Shown piece after piece: positions 1,959 through 31,075 of a stretch of 41,864 nt of DNA. This DNA comes from Coriobacteriia bacterium (GTDB lineage Bacteria; Actinomycetota; Coriobacteriia; Anaerosomatales; JAENZW01). Within the stretch, counting starts at the first letter, position 1, and every line of letters begins with the position of its first letter. Both the position numbers and the translations under genes were made by a program. The stretch covers positions 1-41,864 of the forward strand of contig JAOUET010000001.1 of the NCBI GenBank assembly GCA_029858605.1, read 5' to 3'. A model generated the notes under the pieces. That model saw only the letters and a program-made list of their open reading frames with translations. It made no database searches and was not told where the DNA came from.

Positions 1959-2035
1959 GGGGGTGTAGCTCAGCCGGTTAGAGCGCTGGCCTGTCAAGCC
2001 AGAGGTCGCGGGTTCGAGCCCCGTCACTCCCGCCA
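1959..2035 (+). tRNA. tRNA-Asp (anticodon GTC)
   Basis: Cloverleaf read by hand: GGGGGTG/TA/GCTC-AGCCGGTTA-GAGC/G/CTGGC-CTGTCAA-GCCAG/AGGTC/GCGGG-TTCGAGC-CCCGT/CACTCCC/G/CCA. Encoded CCA, discriminator G. Confidence 0.93.
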
Positions 2036-2080: not shown

Positions 2081-2621
2081 CGCGTGCCAGCGTATCGCGT
2101 GAGATCAGCGCCCCTTTCTGGTTGAGACTTATGTCACGCTAGCAGCCGGATCGAGTTCGAATGACCTCACCTGGGCGTGCGATTCGACGCACTTGAAGTG
2201 CGGCAAACCTCACGTGGGGTGCGAACGTGCGCACATCGTGTGCGAGATACAACACATGGCGGTTCGTTGATGTCGAGAGGGGTACATAGGCAGGGGAACA
2301 TCGCCCAACCGGTTGCCGCAAAGGCAAACTCGCAGCAACGTCTGAATCGGGTGGTGCATATGGTAGGTTCGCATGCCTGACGGGGCAACATCGCGATAAG
2401 CGACGTCCCGACAAACAGCACGCTGGTAGCCTGCCAGTCATTCCTCCGACACTGAAGCGCCGCTCTCGGTCGCAGCCCCGGAAACGTGGGCGCGCAAAAC
2501 TCGCTTCTGGATAGTCATCTATCGCCAGACACGTTCGTGGTCGACGTGCACAATCATCGGTCCCTCACGGGCGCCCGCATGGCCTGCCATGTGAATCACA
2601 TCACAAGAAGGGAGTGGTTTG

Positions 2622-3143
2622 GTGATGGATGAGAAGCGCAAGAAGGCGATCCTAGCAGCGGTTGGCAGATGGACCTGGGGATCGCTGGTCGTTCTGATCG
2701 CAGGTAGTGCGCTGGTGGTTGCGTACGTTCTGCTCGATTGGGCGGACTATGCGGCCATGTGCCTGCTCGGAATCTTGGCTGGACTGTCCGCGTCGTACGC
2801 GCTGGTCGGAAGAGACAACCACCGCACCAGCTCCTACTACGTGGCACTTGCCTTCGGACTGGTGCTGCTCCCTGCGATCGCGATCTACCTAGGGTGGGTC
2901 GCTGCCTACGACGAGGTCGCCTTCACTTCATGGAACGGGGCTCTGACGCCCTTCGCAGCTTTCGCGCTCGTGACGCTTTCGACTCGCGCGATCCTTTCGG
3001 GCATCTGGCGTCCGAGGGAGATCGAGGAGGAGGTTGCCGAAGAGGTGGAGGAGGAGTCCGCGTGGCTCGTGCCCAAGCCGGTGTCGGTAGCCAGCCTCAC
3101 GGGCGGCGAAACCGAGGAGACAGAAGTCGCGGAAGGAGCGTGA
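2622..3143 (+). CDS. 4-TM membrane protein with acidic C-terminal tail, first gene of the atp operon (possible AtpI-like)
   Basis: AAGGGAG at 2608-2614, then TTG 2619 / GTG 2622 / ATG 2625. Four predicted TM helices, then an EIEEEVAEEVEEE tail. Sits directly upstream of the atpZ-like gene and atpB. No specific family recognised. Confidence 0.6.
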   Translation: MMDEKRKKAILAAVGRWTWGSLVVLIAGSALVVAYVLLDWADYAAMCLLGILAGLSASYALVGRDNHRTSSYYVALAFGLVLLPAIAIYLGWVAAYDEVAFTSWNGALTPFAAFALVTLSTRAILSGIWRPREIEEEVAEEVEEESAWLVPKPVSVASLTGGETEETEVAEGA

Positions 3144-3149
3144 TGAGCC

Positions 3150-3371
3150 ATGGCCGAGCTGATTCCTGATGATTTTCTGCGAGCCATAGGAATTTGGTCG
3201 CTCATCCCGAGCTACCTGATCGCGGGAGGCTTCATCGGATACGGTCTGGATCGGTGGCTCGACTTGTTCCCGATCCTCACTTGCATAGGGATGCTCTTGG
3301 CTCTCGCCCTCGCCGTTCGCGACATGATGCGGCTCAAGGACACATTCCCGAAGTCGCAACAGCCGACGTGA
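3150..3371 (+). CDS. atpZ: AtpZ/AtpI-family small membrane protein (ATPase_gene1-like)
   Basis: 73 aa, two TM helices, with GGFIGYGLDRWLDLFP resembling the G-x-G-x-x-LD-x-W motif of the AtpZ family. Immediately precedes atpB. Confidence 0.65.
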   Translation: MAELIPDDFLRAIGIWSLIPSYLIAGGFIGYGLDRWLDLFPILTCIGMLLALALAVRDMMRLKDTFPKSQQPT

Positions 3372-3385
3372 GGGGGTGATCCAAG

Positions 3386-4096
3386 ATGCTATCCGAGCCC
3401 GTACGACATGCGATGCCCTACATCGCACTGTTCAACTTCACGTTGGTCGGAGTCGTGCTCGTGGTGCTCGGCACACTTGCGGGCCGCAGGATGATGACCG
3501 AGGTACCCGAGAGCGTTCAGAATCTCGCGGAGTTCACCACGGACTGGTTCGTGAAGCAGGCTCGTGGGATGGGATCCGATGTCGTGATGCTGGCGGCGCC
3601 TTTCCTCGCGACGATATTCGCCCTCATTTTGGGGTGCAACCTTCTGATGCTCGTGCCCTTGCCGATCATCCACATCCCGCCAACGGCGTTCTACAGCGTT
3701 CCACTGGCCATGGCGCTGACAGCCATCTTCGGCATTGTCGTGCTCAACGGGATCCACCGCGGGATTCTGCCGGCGGTGACCCACCTGGTGTGGCCCAATC
3801 CCATCCAACTCGTGTCGGAGGTCTCCGACGTGCTGTCGCTGTCGCTGCGACTCTTCGGCAACATCGGCGGCGAGTACATGGTCGTCTTGCTCGTAACGCA
3901 AGCGGCGCCGATTGGGATTCCGGTGATCATCCATGGCCTGGGGCTGATTCCATCGTTCATCCAGCCCCTCGTGTTCACGTTGCTCACAGCGAACTTCCTT
4001 GCAACCGCAATACACCACGAAAGCAAGGAGGGCGAGCCCGCAGAGAGCGAGCGAGCCCCGGCTGCATCCGCAGCCGCAGCAAGCGGGGCCGCCTGA
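3386..4096 (+). CDS. atpB: F0F1 ATP synthase subunit a
   Basis: 236 aa polytopic membrane protein with the essential-Arg motif LSLRLFGNIGGE. GAGGGGG Shine-Dalgarno sequence upstream. Confidence 0.93.
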   Translation: MLSEPVRHAMPYIALFNFTLVGVVLVVLGTLAGRRMMTEVPESVQNLAEFTTDWFVKQARGMGSDVVMLAAPFLATIFALILGCNLLMLVPLPIIHIPPTAFYSVPLAMALTAIFGIVVLNGIHRGILPAVTHLVWPNPIQLVSEVSDVLSLSLRLFGNIGGEYMVVLLVTQAAPIGIPVIIHGLGLIPSFIQPLVFTLLTANFLATAIHHESKEGEPAESERAPAASAAAASGAA

Positions 4097-4136: not shown

Positions 4137-4364
4137 ATGAGAGAAGTGCTCTTGATCTTCATCCCGACGCTCACGGTACTGCCCGCAGCCATCGCTGCGT
4201 CGATGGCGATGAGGAGGATATCGCTATCGGCCATCGAGGGTATCACCAGACAACCCGAGGTCGCCGCCCAGCTGTTCACTTCTATGCTGATCGGCATGGC
4301 GCTTATCGAGGCCTTGGTCATCTACTGCCTCGTTATCGCCCTCATGCTGGCCGGCAAGGTCTAG
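4137..4364 (+). CDS. atpE: F0F1 ATP synthase subunit c
   Basis: 75-aa helical hairpin with loop RQPE and carboxylate in ALIEALVIY. GGAGGTG Shine-Dalgarno sequence upstream. Confidence 0.93.
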   Translation: MREVLLIFIPTLTVLPAAIAASMAMRRISLSAIEGITRQPEVAAQLFTSMLIGMALIEALVIYCLVIALMLAGKV

Positions 4365-4399: not shown

Positions 4400-4927
4400 A
4401 TGGTTCTCGATCCCATTGGGCAGCTCAACGCGATCACGATAGTCGGCGTAATCGTCGTGTTCACGATCGTTCTCCTCATTCTGCGAAAGACGTTCTTCCG
4501 TCCCCTCATCACTGTGATGGAGGCGCGGCACGCGAAGATCGAAGAGGGTCGCCGTATTCGCGCGGAGGCCGCACGAATGATCTCGGAGGCCCAACTCGAG
4601 GCGGAAGCCTACCTGATCACGGCCGCCGAAGACCGAGAGAAGGCTTTGGCGGAAATCAAGACCGAGGCCGACAACCGTCGTGAACAGTTGCTCACCGAGG
4701 CCAATGTGAAGGCCAGCGCGATTCTGGCGGCGGGTCACGAAGAGGCAGCGGTTCTCCGCGAAGCCGAGGAGGCTCGGATGAGGGAAACGCTGACGACGTG
4801 TGTGACGCAGACGCTGTCCCGGCTGCTAGGCGAGGTCGACGAGAGAGCAGTCCGCACTCTGGTCGATCGCGAACTAGCCTCGAGAGAGACCGAGGGAAGG
4901 GAGGGGGACGATGGAACTCCTAAGTGA
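4400..4927 (+). CDS. atpF: F0F1 ATP synthase subunit b
   Basis: N-terminal TM helix followed by a long charged Ala/Glu/Arg-rich helix. Position after atpE. Confidence 0.88.
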   Translation: MVLDPIGQLNAITIVGVIVVFTIVLLILRKTFFRPLITVMEARHAKIEEGRRIRAEAARMISEAQLEAEAYLITAAEDREKALAEIKTEADNRREQLLTEANVKASAILAAGHEEAAVLREAEEARMRETLTTCVTQTLSRLLGEVDERAVRTLVDRELASRETEGREGDDGTPK

Positions 4928-5450
4928 GCTCGTTTCGGAGTTCCTGCACGAACTGACGACCACTGAGTACCTGATCGAGCTCGTGCAGGGTTCGTTGCTC
5001 ATCCTGATTCTCGTTCTCGCGCTGCCTCGGCTGCTCAAACCGCGACTAGCGGCAAGACGCCAGGGAATCATCGACGACCTCGAGGCGGCTGTTGCCGCAC
5101 CGGAGGAAGTCGAGCGAGCCGAAAAGGAGGCCAAGGCGGTCGTGGCCCGGGTTCGCAGGGAGGCGCATCGTACGAAGCTCGCCGCAAAGGCTGACGCCAT
5201 CGCAGAACGCGACGAGGCGATATCGGACGCCGAACGGGAGGCAGCCGAGATCGTCGAGCATGCGCACCAGACGGTCGAGGCCGAGAAGGCTTCGGTAAGC
5301 ACTGAAACGTGCGAGGAGATGGTCGGACTTGTCACGGTGATCGCAAGGCGCTTCTTGGACGAATCGCTGTCGGAGAAGGAGCGCCGAGCTCTCACCGAGC
5401 GTGTCGTGATGTCCAGTCTGGAGAACATCGACAGCCTGCATGTCGAATAG
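4911..5450 (+). CDS. atpF: F0F1 ATP synthase subunit b' (second b-type stalk subunit)
   Basis: Same architecture as b (TM LLILILVLALP plus a long charged helix). GGGAGGGGG Shine-Dalgarno sequence. Overlaps the end of the first b gene by 17 nt. Confidence 0.85.
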   Translation: MELLSELVSEFLHELTTTEYLIELVQGSLLILILVLALPRLLKPRLAARRQGIIDDLEAAVAAPEEVERAEKEAKAVVARVRREAHRTKLAAKADAIAERDEAISDAEREAAEIVEHAHQTVEAEKASVSTETCEEMVGLVTVIARRFLDESLSEKERRALTERVVMSSLENIDSLHVE

Positions 5451-5466
5451 CGAGGAGTAGGCGAAA

Positions 5467-7626
5467 GTGAACAACGATGTCGGAGCGGCCGGCACGCTGT
5501 GCGTGATTCTCAGGGTGCCGGTGACGCTCGAAGACGAGATCGTAGAGGACATTCGCAGGAGGCTGTGCGAGCTGACCGAGAAGGATGTGACCCTTGACGT
5601 ACGGGTCGATCCGGAGCTCGACGGAGCGCTGCTCGAGATCGGGCCTCGAACGCGCATAGCGTTCGATTTCGGCGACGTCGTCGGACGCCTCGAACGCGAC
5701 ATCCGATCGTCTCTGGGCGACGGCGAGGCAACCGGTCCCGAGAGGGTTGCGGATGCGGCGGCTGATGCGGCGTCCGCCCCGTTGCACGGGGTCTTGGGCA
5801 CCGTCCAGAGTTCCGGTCTTTGGCAAGCCCTGTCCCGAATGAAGGGCTCTTCGGCGCAGGTGCGCACTCGCGTCCCTGTCGACCCCGGTCTTGCCGAAGT
5901 GTTGGGCCGACGCCTCAGCGACGTCGCCGAGCGGCAGATCCAGGTGGAGTTCGTCACCGACCCGTCCATGGAGTCGGAGGCCGTGCTGCAACTTGGACCT
6001 GACATGAGCATCGATCTCGATACTCACGAGCAGATGCTGGAGTCGCTGGAGAGCGCACTCGCACAACGCGAGAAGTCACGTCTGCGCTCCGCCGACACGG
6101 CGGAAGCCTACGTCGCTCAGCTCGTTCGCCATATTCGACCGACGCTACGCCTCAAGGAGGCTACCGAACGCGGCTACGTCGAGCAGATCGGCGATGGCAT
6201 AGCCATCGTGCGAGGTCTGCGGCACGTTGGTGCCCAAGAAGTCGTCCAGTTCGAAGCGGGACCCTACGGCATCGCGTTCAACCTGCTCGAGAACGCAGTC
6301 GGCTGCATCATGCTTGGCGCCGAAGACGCCGTGGATGTCGGGACGGCGGTTCAAGCGACGGGGCGTCTGCTGGAAATCCCGACCGGTCCAGCTCTCGTCG
6401 GCCGAACCGTGAACGCGCTCGGCTATCCGCTGGATGGCAAGGGACCGGTGCCGCTCGACAACATGCGACAGGTAGAACGCGTCGCACCCAGTGTAGTCAG
6501 GCGACAGCAGGTGTCGGAGCCTCTGCACACGGGCATCAAGACGCTCGACGCGCTCGTTCCACTAGGCCGAGGACAGCGCGAGCTGGTCCTCGGCGATCGC
6601 AAGATCGGCAAGACGACACTCGCGATAGACACGATTCTCAGCCAGAAGGGCCACGGTGTGGTGTGCGTGTACGCGGCAATCGGGCAGAAGGCAACGACGG
6701 TGGCGCGAGTGCTCGACATCCTGCGGGAGAGGGGCGCGATGGAGTATACGGTGCTCGTCGTCGCATTCTCGAACGAGGAGCCGGCGTTTCGCTATCTCGT
6801 CCCGTACACCGCGTGTACGATCGCCGAGCAAGTCATGGACTCAGGAGGCCACTCGTTCGTGGTCTTCGACGACCTTTCGAAGCATGCCGTCACCTATCGG
6901 GAGATGTCGGCCCTGCTCAAACGGCCTATCGGTCGTGAGGCGTACCCGGGCGACGTCTTCTACATTCACTCGAGGCTGCTCGAGAGAGCCGCGCGGCTCC
7001 GCGACGACCTCGGGGGAGGTTCGATGACCGCCATGCCCATCGTTGAGACTCTGGCCGGGGACATTTCCGCATTCATCCCCACCAACGTGATCTCGATCTC
7101 GGACGGGCAGATCATGCTCGATTCCGGGCTGTTCAACGAAGGGTTCAGACCGGCGATGGATGCAGGACTGTCTGTATCGCGCGTGGGCGGCATGGCGCAG
7201 ACGCCGGCCATGAAGAAGGTGGCGGGTAGGCTGCGCATCGACCTCGCTCAATACGAGGAGATGGCGCAGTTCGTCAAGTTCGGTGCCGAAGTCGATCAGG
7301 CCACGCTCGACCAGCTGACGCGGGGAGAGCGCGAGCGGGAACTGCTCAAGCAGGACCAGCACTGTCCGATGCCCCTCGAGGAGGAGGTCGCCATCCTGTT
7401 CGCCGCGGTCAACGGGTACACGGACACGGTGCCGCTCGACGAGTTGCGCGTGTTCGAGGAGGAATACCTTCGCTTCCTCGAGTCGCGGCACCAAGCGGTG
7501 CTCGCCGCGATACGGGACACGCGTGATCTGGCGGCAGCCACCGAAGAGAGCCTGCACGCGGCTTCGCAGCAGTTCGTTCGCGAGTTCGAGTCGCAACGGG
7601 CGGCAGCCCGTCCTGCGGTTCGCTAG
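5467..7626 (+). CDS. atpA: F0F1 ATP synthase subunit alpha with a ~206-aa N-terminal extension of two delta(OSCP) C-terminal-domain-like modules
   Basis: 719-aa uninterrupted ORF. The C-terminal ~510 aa align by eye with alpha (GDRKIGKT Walker A, PGREAYPGDVFYIHSRLLERAA). The N-terminal part carries two copies of a V.V...L...VDP..-type delta C-terminal-domain pattern. GAGGAG lies 10 nt upstream of GTG 5467. Confidence 0.9.
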   Translation: MNNDVGAAGTLCVILRVPVTLEDEIVEDIRRRLCELTEKDVTLDVRVDPELDGALLEIGPRTRIAFDFGDVVGRLERDIRSSLGDGEATGPERVADAAADAASAPLHGVLGTVQSSGLWQALSRMKGSSAQVRTRVPVDPGLAEVLGRRLSDVAERQIQVEFVTDPSMESEAVLQLGPDMSIDLDTHEQMLESLESALAQREKSRLRSADTAEAYVAQLVRHIRPTLRLKEATERGYVEQIGDGIAIVRGLRHVGAQEVVQFEAGPYGIAFNLLENAVGCIMLGAEDAVDVGTAVQATGRLLEIPTGPALVGRTVNALGYPLDGKGPVPLDNMRQVERVAPSVVRRQQVSEPLHTGIKTLDALVPLGRGQRELVLGDRKIGKTTLAIDTILSQKGHGVVCVYAAIGQKATTVARVLDILRERGAMEYTVLVVAFSNEEPAFRYLVPYTACTIAEQVMDSGGHSFVVFDDLSKHAVTYREMSALLKRPIGREAYPGDVFYIHSRLLERAARLRDDLGGGSMTAMPIVETLAGDISAFIPTNVISISDGQIMLDSGLFNEGFRPAMDAGLSVSRVGGMAQTPAMKKVAGRLRIDLAQYEEMAQFVKFGAEVDQATLDQLTRGERERELLKQDQHCPMPLEEEVAILFAAVNGYTDTVPLDELRVFEEEYLRFLESRHQAVLAAIRDTRDLAAATEESLHAASQQFVREFESQRAAARPAVR

Positions 7627-7642: not shown

Positions 7643-10157
<2,515 letters not shown>

Positions 10158-10163
10158 TCCGGG

Positions 10164-10541
10164 ATGACCCCTTTCGTCCTGGAGATCATCACTCCTGACG
10201 GGAAGAGCTTCGTTGCCGAGGACATCGAGCAGGTCGTCTTCAGGCGCCGAGAGCACGTCCATGAGCAGGGGAGCGAAGTAGCCCTGTTCCCTTTGCACGG
10301 TCCGCTTCTGATGCGGATTCCCTGTACTCCGGTGCGCTACTCCTGTGGCGGCGAGATTCGTCACTTGGTGCTCGGAGGCGGGTTCGTCCAAGTCAAAGGA
10401 AGCAAGGTGTTGTGCGTGACTCCCAGGTTCCAGGCGGTGGGCGTCGACTCGCCTGAGGCCAGGAACGTGGCGAAGCGAATAGCAGACCAGTGGCTGGCCG
10501 AAGCGACAGACTTCATCGGCTCGATGACCGGGTTCAAGTAG
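10164..10541 (+). CDS. atpC: F0F1 ATP synthase subunit epsilon
   Basis: 125 aa. The N-terminal beta-sandwich pattern (FVLEIITPDGKSF...) and the position after atpD fit epsilon. The C-terminal helical region is short. Confidence 0.85.
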   Translation: MTPFVLEIITPDGKSFVAEDIEQVVFRRREHVHEQGSEVALFPLHGPLLMRIPCTPVRYSCGGEIRHLVLGGGFVQVKGSKVLCVTPRFQAVGVDSPEARNVAKRIADQWLAEATDFIGSMTGFK

Positions 10542-10565
10542 TCGGTGGCCGCATCGACGCGTACG

Positions 10566-10766
10566 CTATTCGGCGTACTCGAACAGCTCCTCGACGGTGA
10601 CCCCGAACACCTCGGCGATGTCCATCGCAAGCCGCAGTGAGGGATTGTATTCGCCGTGCTCGAGATGCACGATCGTCTCTCTTCGCACGCCGACCCTGTC
10701 CGCCAGTTCGCGCTGCGTGAGCTCGAACCGTACTCGCTGTTCGCGGATGTGCGTCATCAAGGACAT
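10566..10766 (-). CDS. XRE/Cro-C1-family helix-turn-helix transcriptional regulator (66 aa)
   Basis: MSLMTHIREQRVRFELTQRELADRVGVRRETIVHLEHGEYNPSLRLAMDIAEVFGVTVEELF is a classic short HTH_XRE protein. The upstream part of ORF 10566..11015 is Arg/Pro-rich and was rejected. Confidence 0.85.
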   Translation of the reverse strand: MSLMTHIREQRVRFELTQRELADRVGVRRETIVHLEHGEYNPSLRLAMDIAEVFGVTVEELFEYAE

Positions 10767-11027
10767 ATCGCCTCGCATCCAAGGAGATCGTGGCGGCGAT
10801 CGCGTCACGCCCCCCGCCCTTGAAGGAGTCGTCCCGCGTTTATTTACCCGGCAGGGAGGTGCGCTAACTCTCACACGGCATCGTGTTCGCGTGCGGTCTC
10901 CAGCTTCGAGCCTGCCGCGTGTCGCGCACGGGGTGGGGCGGTGCGCGACAGCACGGCTGAGAGGGGTACCTACTACGTAGGAGCGCGGCACCGGACACCC
11001 CCAGTTTGTCTGCACCTAGGAGGGCTC

Positions 11028-11396
11028 GTGAGCCAGTACATCGAAGTCATGACGACCGAGGAACTGGCCGAAGGAGAGATGCGGCTCGTCGAGGTAGACG
11101 GCCACAAGATCGTCGTCGCAAGAATAGACGGGGCGTTCTACGCTGCCGACGCACACTGCCCGCACCTTCACGGGAACCTGTGGAAGGGCACTCTGGAGGG
11201 CACTGTCGTCACGTGCCCGCTCCATCACTCGAAGTTCGATCTGACCGACGGACACGTCGTCACCTGGACGGATTTCAAGGGTGCGGTGAGGACGATGGCC
11301 GGGATGGTGCGGCATGCCCGGCCTCTGCGCGTCTACGAGACGATCGTGGACGGCGGGGATCTCTACGTCGGACCTCAGAAAGAACCGCCCGCCTGA
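11028..11396 (+). CDS. Rieske [2Fe-2S] domain protein (ferredoxin-type)
   Basis: CPHLHG ... CPLHHSKF (CxH / CxxH) Rieske ligands. AGGAGGG just upstream of GTG 11028; ATG 11049 is an alternative start. Confidence 0.85.
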   Translation: MSQYIEVMTTEELAEGEMRLVEVDGHKIVVARIDGAFYAADAHCPHLHGNLWKGTLEGTVVTCPLHHSKFDLTDGHVVTWTDFKGAVRTMAGMVRHARPLRVYETIVDGGDLYVGPQKEPPA

Positions 11397-11479
11397 CGCC
11401 CCAGGTCTTGAGCTTTCAGTCCGGAGCCTCTGATGCCGACGAATAGGGTGAAGCTTTCGCGATTGCCGAAGGAGCCACC

Positions 11480-11635
11480 TTGGACACCCGTGACCATCTG
11501 TCCCAACGCCAGCGCGAAGCGCTCTGGAAGTGGCGCTGGCTGGGGTGGCGAGAGAGCACGCCCGCCTTCAAGGCGAGTCTGGCGCTTGTCGCGTTCGCAG
11601 TGCTCGCGTTCGTCATTCTACTGGGGCGTATCTAG
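11480..11635 (+). CDS. candidate small tail-anchored membrane protein (51 aa), unannotated by the ORF track
   Basis: AAGGAG (11469-11474) lies 5 nt before TTG 11480. Product is MDTRDHLSQRQREALWKWRWLGWRESTPAFKASLALVAFAVLAFVILLGRI. Third codon positions are strongly G/C, and the C-terminus is one clean TM helix. Confidence 0.3.
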   Translation: MDTRDHLSQRQREALWKWRWLGWRESTPAFKASLALVAFAVLAFVILLGRI

Positions 11636-11773
11636 CAGCGTGCGGGCAGCATCCTGCTGCCGCCGTGGGTGAACGGGCGGAGTCAGGCCGATTCCGCCCC
11701 TGTCCTGGCCGGGTGCGATCCGTGTGGCTTGACCGCGCATCGGCCGTTCCGTACGATTGTCCGGCGTCTTAGA

Positions 11774-11849
11774 GGCCAGGTAGCTCAGCTGGTAGAGCAG
11801 GGGACTGAAAATCCCCGTGTCGGCGGTTCAAGTCCGTCCCTGGCCACCA
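11774..11849 (+). tRNA. tRNA-Phe (anticodon GAA)
   Basis: GGCCAGG/TA/GCTC-AGCTGGTA-GAGC/A/GGGGA-CTGAAAA-TCCCC/GTGTC/GGCGG-TTCAAGT-CCGTC/CCTGGCC/A/CCA. Encoded CCA. Confidence 0.93.
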
Positions 11850-11860
11850 TCTGGATTCGT

Positions 11861-11890
11861 GGGCCCTGCCGAAGAGGCGGGGCCCTCTTG
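11861..11890 (+). terminator. stem-loop after tRNA-Phe (likely intrinsic terminator)
   Basis: GGGCCCTGCC-GAAGA-GGCGGGGCCC (10-bp stem, one G-U pair) followed by TCTTG. Confidence 0.5.
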
Positions 11891-12262
11891 CGTCCGCACG
11901 GGTGACTGCTGTCGGTGTGGTGCGACGGAACTTGGCGCCGCCAAGCTCGTGACTACCATGCGGTCTACACCAGGGTAGAATCACCGTAGGGACTGTAGCA
12001 GCGTGCACGGGCACGGATCGCGAGGACGTGGTCCGGCAAGTGCGAGCGCAAACGCAGCACACGCAGCCGTACTTTCTGCGCGAAGGCGATTCAGGTGCCA
12101 GCCTAGTACCACAGCGGAGCGGGGCGCCGAAGACCGCGGATGCGCATGAAAGTAAGCCACAGTAACTCGCCCAAGACGCTCGACGTGACACCTGGATACA
12201 CGACCGCGCACGCGCTCGTGCGCTCTGTTCCTTGAAAAGGAAAGATTGTGAGGCGATGGGCT

Positions 12263-13180
12263 ATGAAGAGGGGGATTGTCTTTTCCCTCCTCGTCGGGTT
12301 GGTCCTGATGCTCTCATCCCAGACGGCGTTCGCAAAGGAGAATGCGGACAAGCCGCAGACCTACAACGCTGCGACCGCCGCTGGACAAGCGAAAGCGGAT
12401 CGAGAAGCAAACGCGAAGCCGAAGATGGACCGCGCCCAGCCAAAGAATAGCGGGAAGCCGAAACAGAACGGCCAATCCAATCGCAAGGCTGCGCACGATC
12501 CGAATCCGCTCGCAAAAGGCAAAACAAGCGACGAGACGACACCAGAACCTTTCGAAGATGACACTGCGAAGAACGCGAGCGAGGAGCCTATCTCCACGCC
12601 GCAACCGACCACCGTTCAACTTCATCCCGCGCACGTTGGCGCGGACAGTGAGACTTTCGGCACTGATTCAGACACTGGGGGTCTCCACGATTCTGTAGTG
12701 TGGCATTTCGTCTTGAACGGACTTGACCCCGGCACCCAGCCGGCCGAGCTTTCGGCCACCTTCCAGATCGCTGGCAACGTGACAGCAATCGGTCTGCCGG
12801 TCGGCAACGGTTCGACCCAGCATTTCTACGTAGGCACTCCTTCTCACGATGTCCTGCTCGGATGCTCGGCTATCGTAACCAGCGCCGGTGTTGGCAAGCT
12901 GGTGCTCAGCAACGTGGCATGGACCTCCGGGTCGGAGGAGCCCGAAGAGCCGGAGGAACCGGAGGAGCCCGAAGAGCCGGAGGAACCGGAGGAGCCCGAA
13001 GAGCCGGAGGAGCAGGTCGACGGCGAGCCTTTCCTGCCGTTTGCCGAGGAGGCCGCGTCGACCGCCAAGGAGCCCTATCTTCCCTACACGGGAGACACGG
13101 GAACTCTGATCCTTGGAGCTGCTGCTTGGGCCGCAATGCTCGGCGCGGCGCTGAGAGTTGGATCACGCTATCTGCACTAG
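12263..13180 (+). CDS. LPXTG-anchored cell-surface protein with (PEE)n linker
   Basis: Signal peptide MKRGIVFSLLVGLVLMLSSQTAFA-KEN. C-terminal sorting signal is LPYTG plus hydrophobic GTLILGAAAWAAMLGAAL plus a basic tail RVGSRYLH. Lys-rich disordered N-region, a ~110-aa unknown domain, then an EEPEEPEEP... run. Confidence 0.85.
   Translation: MKRGIVFSLLVGLVLMLSSQTAFAKENADKPQTYNAATAAGQAKADREANAKPKMDRAQPKNSGKPKQNGQSNRKAAHDPNPLAKGKTSDETTPEPFEDDTAKNASEEPISTPQPTTVQLHPAHVGADSETFGTDSDTGGLHDSVVWHFVLNGLDPGTQPAELSATFQIAGNVTAIGLPVGNGSTQHFYVGTPSHDVLLGCSAIVTSAGVGKLVLSNVAWTSGSEEPEEPEEPEEPEEPEEPEEPEEPEEQVDGEPFLPFAEEAASTAKEPYLPYTGDTGTLILGAAAWAAMLGAALRVGSRYLH
12934..13012 (+). repeat. 27-nt tandem repeat, ~2.9 copies (encodes the EEPEEPEEP linker)
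   Basis: GGAGGAGCCCGAAGAGCCGGAGGAACC occurs at 12934-12960 and identically at 12961-12987. A third partial copy runs to 13012. Confidence 0.9.
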
Positions 13181-13316
13181 TGCTAGGCGTCCAGAGCAAG
13201 AGAGGAGCCGCCATTGTGGCGGCTCCTTCGCCTTCCTGGAGCTGTCCGAGCAGCGTGCGAAGGGAGATAATAGGGCTACCTCGTGCCGCGAGGTCCGACG
13301 ACGGAGGGGATGCCCG

Positions 13317-13979
13317 GTGGCTGCCGACCGACAGCGCAACGCGTTGCAGGTGATCTTCTCGTTCTTTCTGGGCCTGATGGTAACTGCCTTCATCGGGGTT
13401 GGCGTAAACACGTTCTATCAGTCACCAGAAGTGCGCTACCAGGACGAAATCGATGAACTTGTCCGCCAGGAAGAGGACGTCTACATCACCCAGGATGCCG
13501 AGGGTCCGCTGTCTGCGCAGGACGAGGCCACGCTGGAGGAGATCAGGAGAGAGATCCGCGCGCTCGAGGACAAGCGGCAGTCAGAGTGGGAGCCCTACGC
13601 CCGCAACACGAGCATCATACTCATCCTCTTCGCGACACTCGTCATGGGCATTTCGCTGATGCGCTCAGAACAGCTGCGGATCATAAGCAACGGTCTACTG
13701 CTCGGTGGTCTCTTCACGATGCTCTATGGGACCGGGTGGGTGATCGCCAGCGGCAGCTCGCTCGCTCGTTTCGCTGTGATGACATTCGCGCTGGTCGTCA
13801 CGTTCGCTCTGGGATACGCGAGATTCGTCCGTTCGCGCGGGGTCATGCCAGCAGCCGCACGCACGCCATCCGCCGCGGTCGCCTCGGATGCGGAGGTGTC
13901 GTCCCTCGAGGCACGCGTGACCGCGCTCGAGCGGAGAACGGCGAAGGCGGCTTCGGCTCTCACGCACGACGAGGACTGA
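13317..13979 (+). CDS. hypothetical multi-TM membrane protein with coiled-coil segments
   Basis: GGAGG lies 9 nt upstream of GTG 13317. The product has a TM helix (VIFSFFLGLMVTAFIGVGV), a charged helix, three more TM helices and a C-terminal heptad-like tail. The 13158 start overlaps the preceding gene and was rejected. Confidence 0.65.
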   Translation: MAADRQRNALQVIFSFFLGLMVTAFIGVGVNTFYQSPEVRYQDEIDELVRQEEDVYITQDAEGPLSAQDEATLEEIRREIRALEDKRQSEWEPYARNTSIILILFATLVMGISLMRSEQLRIISNGLLLGGLFTMLYGTGWVIASGSSLARFAVMTFALVVTFALGYARFVRSRGVMPAAARTPSAAVASDAEVSSLEARVTALERRTAKAASALTHDED

Positions 13980-31000: not shown

Positions 31001-31075
31001 TGGGGCGTAGCCAAGTGGCAAGGCAGGGGACTTTGGATCCTCCATTCGTAGGTTCGAATCCTACCGCCCCAGCCA
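31001..31075 (+). tRNA. tRNA-Gln (anticodon TTG)
   Basis: TGGGGCG/TA/GCC-AAGTGGCAA-GGC/A/GGGGA-CTTTGGA-TCCTC/CATTC/GTAGG-TTCGAAT-CCTAC/CGCCCCA/G/CCA. Collinear with E. coli tRNA-Gln. Confidence 0.92.

What the first reader, a model, noticed from the sequence alone, without database searches (positions are those of the whole stretch)
5467..6084. ATP synthase operon lacks a delta gene; two tandem delta(OSCP) C-terminal-domain-like modules are fused in-frame to the N-terminus of alpha
**Seen in sequence**
- The b' ORF stops at 5450. The next ORF (GTG 5467, with GAGGAG upstream) runs 719 codons to 7626 with no stop. Canonical alpha is roughly 500-515 aa.
- From about residue 207 (TAEAYVAQLVRHI...GYVEQIGDGIAIVRGL) onward it aligns by eye with alpha.
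- Residues ~10-85 read CVILRVPVTLEDEIVEDIRRRLCELTEKDVTLDVRVDPELDGALLEIG...VGRLERDI.
- Residues ~135-205 read VRTRVPVDPGLAEVLGRRLSDVAERQIQVEFVTDPSMESEAVLQLG...LESLESAL.
- Each of these follows the pattern of the delta/OSCP C-terminal domain (V.S..pL....I...L.....V.L...VDPsLiGG..v..G....D.S....L..L).
- Nothing resembles the delta N-terminal helical bundle.
- No separate atpH lies anywhere between atpF' and atpC.
- I see no in-frame start codon with a Shine-Dalgarno sequence at the junction.

**Established knowledge**
- One delta per complex normally caps the F1 crown.
- It binds alpha N-termini through its N-terminal domain and the b dimer through its C-terminal domain.
- Known fusions are b-delta (mycobacteria), not delta-alpha.

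**Inference**
- The non-covalent delta-alpha contact has been replaced by a covalent tether.
- The two modules could each engage one chain of the b/b' heterodimer.
- Every alpha would carry the extension, so the 1:3 delta:alpha stoichiometry is broken.
- That implies either unused or proteolytically removed copies, or more than one peripheral-stalk attachment point, as in A/V-type enzymes.
Basis: partly seen in the sequence, partly recalled or inferred. Interest (0 to 1): 0.78.

Follow-up and report, generated by a model that had tools for sequence, protein, structure and literature searches.

The report
Natural delta-alpha fused ATP synthase subunit
This ATP synthase operon has no separate delta gene; instead each alpha subunit carries two copies of delta's stalk-binding domain, the same design that, when engineered in the lab in 2025, gave an enzyme with up to three stator stalks that makes ATP at half the usual membrane voltage.

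Summary
ORF 5467-7626 (719 aa) is one gene. Residues ~10-83 and ~117-199 are two paralogous copies of the delta/OSCP C-terminal domain, followed by a complete F-type alpha. Evidence comes from Pfam/NCBIfam, profile searches of PDB and of 1.84 billion proteins, hhalign, AlphaFold2 and Foldseek.

[quoted passage not shown] They are also absent from the operons of about 33 related GTDB MAGs.

This is not an artefact. Of 210 alpha-length proteins retrieved, 176 carry such an extension (150 one module, 26 two modules), all in the same operon layout and with no conserved internal start.

Delta-alpha fusion is not unprecedented. Ueno et al. [quoted passage not shown] The engineered chain (9jc1) is the top structural match here.

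New here are a large uncultivated clade, the tandem duplication of the module, and a co-occurring N-terminal helix on beta. The stalk number in vivo is untested.

The parts
2619..3143 (+). 174-aa multi-pass membrane protein with an acidic tail. First gene of the operon, possibly AtpI-like.
   Evidence: No Pfam hit. A homologue sits in the same position in L001, L003, L004, L007, L009, L012, L016, L017, L021, L022 and L036.
3150..3371 (+). AtpZ/AtpQ-like small membrane protein
   Evidence: PF09527 ATPase_gene1, E 3.8e-8.
3386..4096 (+). Fo subunit a
   Evidence: PF00119, E 6e-27.
4137..4364 (+). Fo subunit c (75 aa; carboxylate E58; no Na+ motif)
   Evidence: PF00137, E 2.6e-13. The motif was read directly from the sequence.
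4400..4927 (+). Fo subunit b
   Evidence: PF00430 and NCBIfam b models, near full length.
4911..5450 (+). Fo subunit b'
   Evidence: PF00430, E 4.9e-12. NCBIfam b models cover residues 29-172.
5452..5457 (+). Shine-Dalgarno GAGGAG, 9 nt before the GTG start
   Evidence: Sequence.
5467..7626 (+). Single 719-codon gene encoding [delta-CTD module 1]-[linker]-[delta-CTD module 2]-[alpha]
   Evidence: The same single ORF occurs in 176 of 210 related proteins from independent assemblies.
5494..5715 (+). Module 1 (residues 10-83): delta/OSCP C-terminal-domain fold
   Evidence: PF00213 positions 110-153. The A2 profile hits chloroplast delta at E 2.3e-6. AF2 pLDDT is 90.9. The top 44 Foldseek PDB hits are all delta/OSCP, TM 0.62-0.70.
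5716..5814 (+). Variable linker (residues 84-116) with one predicted helix; partly deleted in the 686-aa relatives
   Evidence: Mean pairwise identity 23%. Alignment. AF2 predicts helix 91-103.
5815..6063 (+). Conserved helix (residues 117-124) plus module 2 (residues 129-199): delta C-terminal-domain fold. Present in every family member.
   Evidence: NCBIfam delta NF009967. The A1 profile hits OSCP/delta in PDB and canonical deltas in the 1.84-billion-protein library. The independent delta HMM gives domain E 4e-6. AF2 and Foldseek top hit 9jc1.
6064..6090 (+). Short variable junction (residues 200-208), the natural counterpart of the engineered GSGG linker
   Evidence: 19% identity. No start codon.
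6091..6132 (+). Canonical alpha N-terminal helix (residues 209-222)
   Evidence: AF2 helix 209-222. Alpha models align from residue ~211-221.
6133..7623 (+). Alpha core: beta-barrel, nucleotide-binding and C-terminal domains
   Evidence: PF02874, PF00006, PF00306; TIGR00962 659.8 bits.
7643..8620 (+). F1 gamma
   Evidence: PF00231, E 3.6e-57.
8607..10157 (+). F1 beta, with a 44-residue N-terminal extension ahead of the beta-barrel
   Evidence: PF02874 starts at residue 47. A conserved ~25-aa helix occurs in relatives and is absent in the outgroup.
10164..10541 (+). F1 epsilon
   Evidence: PF02823.

Best explanation
The gene encodes a natural 'deltaDeltaN-alpha' subunit of a proton-coupled F-type ATP synthase. 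Delta's N-terminal helical bundle has been lost. Delta's C-terminal, b-binding domain has been fused in frame to the N-terminus of alpha, and in this lineage it has been duplicated in tandem.

Shown:
- Both modules are delta C-terminal-domain homologues and fold like it.
- The N-terminal domain and atpH are absent from this operon and from about 33 related operons.
- The architecture is conserved and monophyletic.
- Its alpha-proximal half superimposes on the engineered Bacillus PS3 fusion.

Inferred:
- The b/b' stalk docks on the alpha-borne module. Module 2 is the likely site, because it is universal in the family and sits where the engineered domain sits.
- The domain that normally occupies the three-fold axis and limits the enzyme to one stalk is gone, so all three alphas offer equivalent docking sites.
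- I therefore think the enzyme most likely assembles with more than one b/b' stalk and a-subunit. That would raise H+/ATP and allow ATP synthesis at low proton-motive force, as measured for the engineered enzyme.
- Module 1 is an accessory element that has been lost repeatedly. It may be a second contact for the stalk, for the beta N-terminal helix, or for a neighbouring alpha.
For: ORF and alpha identity.

Delta C-terminal-domain homology of both modules:
- Pfam and NCBIfam.
- Profile against PDB: 13 of 15 and 15 of 17 hits are OSCP/delta, all aligned to the C-terminal domain.
- Profile against 1.84 billion proteins retrieves genuine deltas.
- The independent delta HMM hits only positions ~101-178.
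- hhalign of module 1 against module 2: E 2.8e-16.
- AF2 and Foldseek.

The top Foldseek match of residues 1-262 is 9jc1 chains I/K/J, the engineered deltaDeltaN-alpha, with 125 aligned columns. That length corresponds to module 2, the junction and the alpha N-terminus together.

No atpH or delta N-terminal domain in the window or within +-10 kb in the family loci L001-L036. Outgroup loci with related alphas have normal 181-aa deltas.

Conservation:
- 176 of 210 retrieved alphas carry modules.
- The modules are 36-42% identical, against 19-23% for the linkers.
- The family is monophyletic.
- There is no conserved internal start.
- b and b' keep near-full-length matches to b models, including their C-termini.

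Experimental precedent: the engineered fusion yields up to 3 stalks and 3 a-subunits, H+/ATP 5.9 and a halved equilibrium pmf (PMC12229609). Natural Chloroflexus F1Fo has 2 stalks and 2 a-subunits because its delta N-terminal domain is shortened (PMC12002316).
Against: - No direct evidence for stalk or a-subunit stoichiometry in this organism.
- The rest of the genome is unseen, because the window is a 41.9-kb metagenome contig. A second atp operon or a distant atpH cannot be excluded.
- Docking of b/b' on module 2 rests on homology, not on a computed or observed interface.
- Even the engineered enzyme was heterogeneous, with 1-3 stalks and about 2 on average.
- The b/b' heterodimer and the extra module have no engineered counterpart.
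- The role of module 1 is unknown.
Confidence: 0.6

Rival explanations
1. Single-stalk enzyme with spare sites. The fusion merely tethers the b-binding domain covalently. Only one b/b'-a stator assembles per complex, limited by assembly order, a-subunit supply or c-ring geometry. The other two alphas, and module 1, carry unused domains.
For: - All natural F-type enzymes solved so far have one stalk, except Chloroflexus.
- The operon has the usual single a gene and the standard order.
- Engineered preparations contained single-stalk particles too.
Against: [quoted passage not shown]
- Long-term conservation of the loss of the N-terminal domain across a large clade suggests the symmetric state is used.
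Confidence: 0.3
2. A canonical delta is encoded elsewhere in the genome and caps this F1. The alpha-borne modules then have another role, such as regulation, assembly or oligomerisation, rather than stalk docking.
For: - Only 41.9 kb of the genome is visible.
- The alpha N-terminal helix that normally binds delta's N-terminal domain is retained.
Against: - None of about 35 operons from different species has atpH or any N-terminal-domain-like ORF within +-10 kb, while the outgroup operons all do, in the usual position.
- The modules keep the fold and sequence signature of the b-binding domain.
- The engineered fusion works without delta.
Confidence: 0.06
3. The polypeptide is processed. Proteolysis or internal initiation releases a free truncated delta plus a normal-length alpha, restoring something like the usual stoichiometry.
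For: The junction (residues 200-208) is short, variable and predicted to be non-helical.
Against: - No in-frame start codon lies between residues 191 and 247 here. L001, L006, L007 and L009 have none in the 55 codons before the barrel.
- A free C-terminal domain without the N-terminal domain was expected not to bind F1 stably, which is why it was fused in the engineered design.
- Cleavage cannot be tested in silico.
Confidence: 0.03
4. Artefact. A sequencing or assembly frameshift, or a lost stop codon, has merged a delta-like gene with atpA.
For: One relative (L003/P0010) comes from a frameshift-ridden assembly.
Against: - The same continuous ORF is found in 176 proteins from JGI, ENA, Logan and NCBI assemblies and in about 33 GTDB species.
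- Gene callers call one gene.
- A split would still leave a delta without its N-terminal domain.
Confidence: 0.01

Closest known systems
Engineered deltaDeltaN-alpha fused FoF1 of Bacillus PS3 (Ueno et al., Nat Commun 2025, PMC12229609; PDB 9jc1)
   Same: - Delta N-terminal domain removed.
- Delta C-terminal domain joined by a short linker to the alpha N-terminus.
- No free delta.
- 9jc1 chains are the best structural match to residues 1-262.
   Different: - The window gene is natural, not designed.
- It has two tandem C-terminal-domain modules instead of one.
- It has a b/b' heterodimer instead of b2.
- Beta carries an extra N-terminal helix.
- Stalk number and H+/ATP are unknown here.
Natural delta-alpha gene fusions noted in Acidaminococcus fermentans (D2RLW6) and UniProt G4Q3K6 and A0A1I2C5T3 (same paper, Discussion and Suppl. 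Fig. 9)
   Same: Same kind of natural fusion, lacking the delta N-terminal domain. Also uncharacterised experimentally.
   Different: - Those are Negativicutes and were described as carrying one domain.
- Acidaminococcus did not appear among the 120 best relatives of either family query, nor in the GTDB pattern scan.
- Common origin or convergence is therefore unresolved. I could not retrieve those sequences.
[quoted passage not shown]
   Same: A natural F-type enzyme that escapes the one-stalk rule by altering delta's N-terminal domain. Its delta C-terminal domain matches both modules structurally.
   Different: Its delta is a free subunit with a shortened four-helix N-terminal domain that dimerises. 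There is no fusion to alpha.
Mycobacterial b-delta fusion (e.g. PDB 7jg5, 7njk)
   Same: Delta is covalently joined to a neighbouring stator subunit. Its C-terminal domain matches the modules.
   Different: - The fusion partner is b, not alpha.
- The delta N-terminal domain is retained.
- There is one stalk.
- Here b and b' are ordinary 175- and 179-aa proteins.
A/V-type ATPases with two or three E-G stalks
   Same: Functional analogy: each non-catalytic subunit (B, the alpha homologue) provides a stalk attachment site at its N-terminal end.
   Different: The stalk proteins are unrelated and there is a single a-subunit. This is an analogy from general knowledge and was not tested here.

Membership tests
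F-type ATP synthase subunit alpha (TIGR00962 atpA) | Score above the curated equivalog cutoff, plus the three alpha/beta Pfam domains | tested here: met
   659.8 bits against a cutoff of 484.45, residues 221-707. PF02874, PF00006 and PF00306 are all present.
F-type ATP synthase subunit alpha (TIGR00962 atpA) | Position in an atp operon between b/delta and gamma | tested here: met
   The order is atpZ-a-c-b-b'-alpha-gamma-beta-epsilon.
ATP synthase delta/OSCP (PF00213) | N-terminal helical-bundle domain that binds alpha N-termini on the F1 axis | tested here: not met
   Matches cover only profile positions ~101-178. No ORF in the window or in the family loci matches positions 1-100.
ATP synthase delta/OSCP (PF00213) | C-terminal alpha/beta domain (the b-binding domain) | tested here: met
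   Present twice. Sequence profiles. Fold.
ATP synthase delta/OSCP (PF00213) | Separate polypeptide present once per complex | tested here: not met
   Fused in frame to alpha, with no internal start. Stoichiometry would follow alpha.
deltaDeltaN-alpha fusion type (engineered 9jc1; natural Acidaminococcus-type) | Delta C-terminal domain fused to the alpha N-terminus, N-terminal domain absent, no free delta in the operon | tested here: met
   9jc1 is the top Foldseek hit (E 7e-4, 125 columns).
deltaDeltaN-alpha fusion type (engineered 9jc1; natural Acidaminococcus-type) | One C-terminal-domain module per alpha | tested here: not met
   This gene has two modules, as do 26 of the 176 fused relatives. 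It is therefore a variant.
deltaDeltaN-alpha fusion type (engineered 9jc1; natural Acidaminococcus-type) | More than one peripheral stalk and a-subunit per complex, with raised H+/ATP | not testable with these tools
   This needs biochemistry or cryo-EM. It has been shown only for the engineered enzyme.
N-ATPase (alternate F1Fo, TIGR03324/TIGR03321) | Alpha above the N-ATPase cutoff, and operon order atpD-C-Q-R-B-E-F-A-G | tested here: not met
   TIGR03324 scores 561.7 against a cutoff of 750.5. The operon order is the classical F-type order. Only the PF09527 gene is shared.
Mycobacterial-type b-delta fusion (NF009961) | A b subunit of ~445 aa carrying a delta domain | tested here: not met
   b is 175 aa and b' is 179 aa. 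NF009961 matches only the b part, weakly (E 1e-5, 24.8 bits against a cutoff of 328).

The most novel reading that the evidence does not exclude
This uncultivated, apparently anaerobic clade (MAGs labelled Actinomycetota/Coriobacteriia, Nitrospirota and others) naturally builds F-type ATP synthases with two or three b/b' stalks and a-subunits. That would give H+/ATP ratios beyond any known natural enzyme, as an adaptation to very low proton-motive force. The duplicated module 1 and the beta N-terminal helix would form an additional, previously unseen crown or stator element that stabilises the multi-stalk assembly.
Probability: 0.4. Interest if true: 0.85.

Novelty: new variant of a known kind. 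Interest (0 to 1): 0.62.

Why it matters
H+/ATP is a basic parameter of bioenergetics. It was long thought to be set only by c-ring size with a single a-subunit. Work in 2025 showed that deleting delta's N-terminal domain and fusing its C-terminal domain to alpha multiplies the stalks and a-subunits and halves the pmf needed for ATP synthesis. The authors guessed that nature might do the same.

This window shows that the design is not an oddity of one Negativicutes genus. It defines a large, monophyletic family with at least 176 distinct sequences and about 33 GTDB species, all uncultivated. The family has its own elaborations: tandem modules, b/b' stalks and a beta N-terminal helix. It supplies many natural test cases for whether multi-stalk, high-ratio ATP synthases exist and whether they track energy-limited lifestyles. 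It also supplies natural linker and module designs for engineering.

Tried and rejected
- the word-indexed homologue search with the N-terminal 215 aa alone found nothing, not even the protein itself. This is uninformative; the rare words are probably not indexed.
- the GTDB scan with the broad alignment A3 failed because the alignment was too divergent. It was replaced by the junction alignment A4.
- exact look-up of the window protein's own record returned nothing.
- It was used only as a negative control.
- I spent the last homologue search on a low-GC family member to link the family to Acidaminococcus. Acidaminococcus did not appear, so common origin or convergence is unresolved.
- **Not run:** a linker-chimera AlphaFold run of b/b' C-termini with the modules.
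- **Rejected: N-ATPase membership** (alpha is below the cutoff and the operon order is wrong).
- **Rejected: b-delta fusion** (b and b' are of normal length).
- **Rejected: frameshift artefact**.
- **Rejected: internal initiation**.
- **Rejected: 'one module per b chain'** (one-module relatives also have b and b').
- literature searches for follow-up on natural multi-stalk enzymes found only the two 2025 papers.
Full report
**1. What is in the sequence**

The window carries a complete F-type atp operon on the + strand:
- a 174-aa membrane protein (2619-3143)
- an AtpZ-like gene (3150-3371, PF09527)
- a (3386-4096)
- c (4137-4364)
- b (4400-4927)
- b' (4911-5450)
- a 719-codon ORF (GTG 5467 to stop 7624-7626, GAGGAG 9 nt upstream)
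- gamma (7643-8620)
- beta (8607-10157)
- epsilon (10164-10541)

The reading frame opens at 5461, so 5467 is the only available upstream start. Residues 221-707 are an unambiguous F-type alpha: TIGR00962 scores 659.8 bits against a cutoff of 484. The N-ATPase alpha model stays below its cutoff.

**2. The 206-residue extension is two delta C-terminal domains**

Single-sequence scans are weak but specific. PF00213 gives E 7e-5 with residues 18-59 on profile positions 110-153 of 172. NCBIfam delta gives residues 123-195 on positions 196-266 of 271.

I built family alignments of each module, A1 (module 2, 41 sequences) and A2 (module 1, 16 sequences).
- Against all PDB sequences, 13 of 15 hits for A1 and 15 of 17 for A2 are OSCP/delta chains. 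All are aligned to their C-terminal domain. The best is a chloroplast delta at E 2.3e-6.
- The two profiles match each other at 98.7% probability, E 2.8e-16.
- Against 1.84 billion representative proteins, the module-2 profile finds family fragments first. It then finds ten proteins of 174-189 aa matched over their residues ~95-180, at library-wide E 1.6e-6 to 9e-4. Pfam shows all ten are full-length OSCP/delta, E 1e-36 to 1e-51.
- An HMM built from those ten deltas, which is independent of the family, hits the window ORF twice and only over its positions ~105-178.

AlphaFold2 of residues 1-262 gives a mean pLDDT of 84. It predicts two beta-alpha-beta-beta-beta-alpha domains, a linker helix, the alpha N-terminal helix (209-222) and the start of the barrel. 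Module 1 folded alone has pLDDT 91. Its 44 best PDB matches are all delta/OSCP chains, with TM 0.62-0.70 over 64-77 aligned columns of the 77-residue model.

**3. What is missing**

No ORF in any frame of the 41.9-kb window resembles delta outside the alpha gene. Nothing matches positions 1-100 of the delta HMM, which is the N-terminal bundle. There is no in-frame ATG, GTG or TTG between residues 191 and 247. The ATG at residue 190 has no Shine-Dalgarno sequence and is not conserved in the family.

**4. It is a family, not an accident**

The closest alpha homologues in a 5.8-billion-protein collection are nearly all extended. Combining two searches, 210 alpha-length proteins divide as follows:

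| Modules | Proteins | Median length |
|---|---|---|
| 1 | 150 | 616 aa |
| 2 | 26 | 719 aa |
| 0 | 34 | 504 aa |

The proteins with no module are canonical alphas, mostly from Bacillota.

A GTDB scan found about 33 species-representative MAGs with the extension. Their NCBI labels are Actinomycetota/Coriobacteriia, Nitrospirota and a few others. One is a closed 2.67-Mb chromosome.

Every locus examined has the same operon and no atpH or N-terminal-domain-like ORF within +-10 kb. Outgroup loci with related alphas (L037-L040, L042) have an ordinary delta of 181-185 aa just upstream of alpha.

All members share a short helix, module 2, a junction and the alpha N-terminal helix. Module 1 plus a variable linker is present in a subset. 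Among two-module proteins:
- module 1 is 36% identical on average
- module 2 is 42% identical
- the linker is 23% and the junction 19%
- the alpha core is 71%

This is the pattern expected of folded, functional but fast-evolving domains.

A neighbour-joining tree of the alpha core places the fused family as one clade. Two-module and one-module forms are interspersed within it, and one protein (P0020) has a degenerate stub in place of module 1. The tree is only rough. It suggests one early duplication followed by repeated loss.

One short relative (P0010, 592 aa) comes from a frameshift-ridden assembly and is an artefact.

**5. What is already known**

The best structural match to residues 1-262 is not a natural protein. 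It is chains I, K and J of 9jc1 (E 7e-4, 125 aligned columns, which corresponds to module 2, the junction and the alpha N-terminus).

9jc1 is the engineered Bacillus PS3 enzyme of Ueno et al. (bioRxiv 2024; Nat Commun 2025, PMC12229609). They deleted delta residues 2-104 and fused residues 105-178 through GSGG to alpha. Their rationale was that delta's N-terminal domain sits on the pseudo-three-fold axis and so limits the enzyme to one stalk. Their results:
- up to three peripheral stalks, each with an a-subunit
- a- and b-subunit content about 2.4 and 2.0 times wild type
- H+/ATP of 5.9
- equilibrium pmf of 68 mV against 133 mV for wild type

In the Discussion they report that Acidaminococcus fermentans (D2RLW6) and two other UniProt entries have a natural delta-alpha fusion without the N-terminal domain. 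They call a natural multi-stalk enzyme 'highly likely', awaiting verification.

Zhang et al. (PNAS 2025, PMC12002316) solved a natural two-stalk, two-a-subunit F1Fo from Chloroflexus. It uses a shortened, dimerising delta N-terminal domain. I found no later follow-up in the held literature.

**6. How it most likely works**

Shown: the domain content, the absences, the conservation, and the structural equivalence to the engineered fusion.

Inferred by homology: the C-termini of b and b' dock on the alpha-borne delta domain. Both b and b' keep near-full-length matches to b models. Module 2 is the likely site because it is universal in the family and occupies the engineered position.

Inferred from the published experiment: the symmetry-breaking N-terminal domain is gone and each alpha has its own docking site. 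The complex can therefore take more than one stalk and a-subunit, raising H+/ATP.

I rate the docking role at about 0.85 and multi-stalk assembly in vivo at about 0.5-0.6.

One-module relatives have the same b and b' pair. The low-GC subgroup seems to have a single b gene and one module, while the Nitrospirota-labelled group has two b genes and one module. Module 1 is thus an accessory of unknown function.

**7. Rivals**

- **A single-stalk enzyme with spare sites (0.3)** is the main rival and can only be settled experimentally.
- **A delta encoded elsewhere (0.06)** is disfavoured by the uniform absence of atpH in all family operons, against its presence in the outgroup. It is not excluded, because the rest of the genome is unseen.
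- **Processing (0.03)** lacks any conserved start, but proteolysis cannot be tested.
- **Artefact (0.01)** is refuted by the family.

**8. Novelty and verdict**

The kind of thing, a natural deltaDeltaN-alpha fusion, has been in print since 2024-2025, so it is not categorically new.

New relative to the literature I could search:
- the size and phylogenetic spread of an uncultivated clade
- the tandem duplication of the delta domain
- the combination with b/b'
- a conserved N-terminal helix on beta that co-occurs with the fusion

Whether the family shares its origin with the Acidaminococcus fusion is unresolved.

I score interest at 0.62. This is a genuine, well-supported and biologically significant architecture with an experimentally grounded mechanistic hypothesis, but it is a variant of a recently described kind.

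Noticed in passing
window 8607-8738 (beta residues 1-44); also L001, L002, L004, L006, L021: Beta carries an N-terminal extension before its beta-barrel: 44 aa here, and a conserved ~25-aa amphipathic helix such as 'EEIIEKALxRLIKEFTEE' in relatives. Outgroup betas, whose operons have a normal delta, have only 3-6 residues there. The low-GC fused subgroup has ~15 non-helical residues. This may be a co-evolved crown element.
   Followed up: partly
L041 8891-9961 (Clostridium sp. MAG): A stand-alone 357-aa delta. It has a complete N- and C-terminal domain (aa 14-181), then a degenerate C-terminal-domain copy (195-254) and a good one (282-355). Tandem duplication of the delta C-terminal domain therefore also occurs outside the fusion family.
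   Followed up: partly
L043 2729-3499 (MAG labelled Pseudomonadota): A b subunit (transmembrane helix plus coiled coil) is fused to a delta C-terminal-domain-like module with no N-terminal domain (delta HMM domain E 2e-5). The operon has an N-ATPase-like order: beta, then a-c-b/delta-alpha-gamma.
   Followed up: no
window 4137-4364 (c subunit): Helix 1 reads AAIAASMAM, an AxAxSxA-like pattern, instead of the usual GxGxGxG packing motif. The ion-binding carboxylate is E58, followed by A-L, and there is M rather than Q at the helix-1 Na+ site. This suggests H+ coupling and possibly an unusual ring size. It was read by eye and not analysed further.
   Followed up: no
window 2619-3143: A 174-aa protein with about four hydrophobic segments and a very acidic C-terminal tail. 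It has no Pfam hit but is conserved as the first gene of the operon in many relatives at 24-43% identity. It may be an AtpI-like assembly factor.
   Followed up: partly
window 12248-13180: A secreted protein with an (EEP)n repeat (EEPEEPEEPEEP...) and a C-terminal LPYTG motif followed by a hydrophobic segment and basic residues. This is a sortase-type cell-wall anchor and fits a Gram-positive-type host.
   Followed up: no
L003 (ENA contig_53352) 9001-13600: This assembly has multiple frameshifts through alpha, gamma and beta. Its 592-aa 'alpha' (P0010) is an artefact of that and not a separate length class.
   Followed up: yes
P0202, P0203, P0207, P0210, P0222, P0232, P0245 (645-675 aa): A further length class: one-module alphas with longer N-terminal leaders and a longer segment between the module and the alpha helix. 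Even longer forms of 702-753 aa (P0205, P0208, P0214, P0215, P0237) were not inspected individually.
   Followed up: no
window 1959-2035, 11774-11849, 31001-31075; 13989-41802: tRNA-Asp, tRNA-Phe and tRNA-Gln. The neighbouring genes are housekeeping or anaerobe-type: MetRS, a GlmU-like gene, a DUF348-G5-3D (RpfB/YabE-like) gene, an M23 peptidase, DUF362 with a 4Fe-4S domain, an NfnB/GltD-like oxidoreductase and an HD_5 phosphohydrolase. The operon is therefore chromosomal and not on a mobile element.
   Followed up: partly
P0183 (505 aa, 'Candidatus Falkowbacteria bacterium RBG_13_39_14'): This protein is 76% identical to the low-GC fused alpha L024 but is annotated at canonical length. Either the start is mis-called or the module has been lost secondarily in a close relative.
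   Followed up: no
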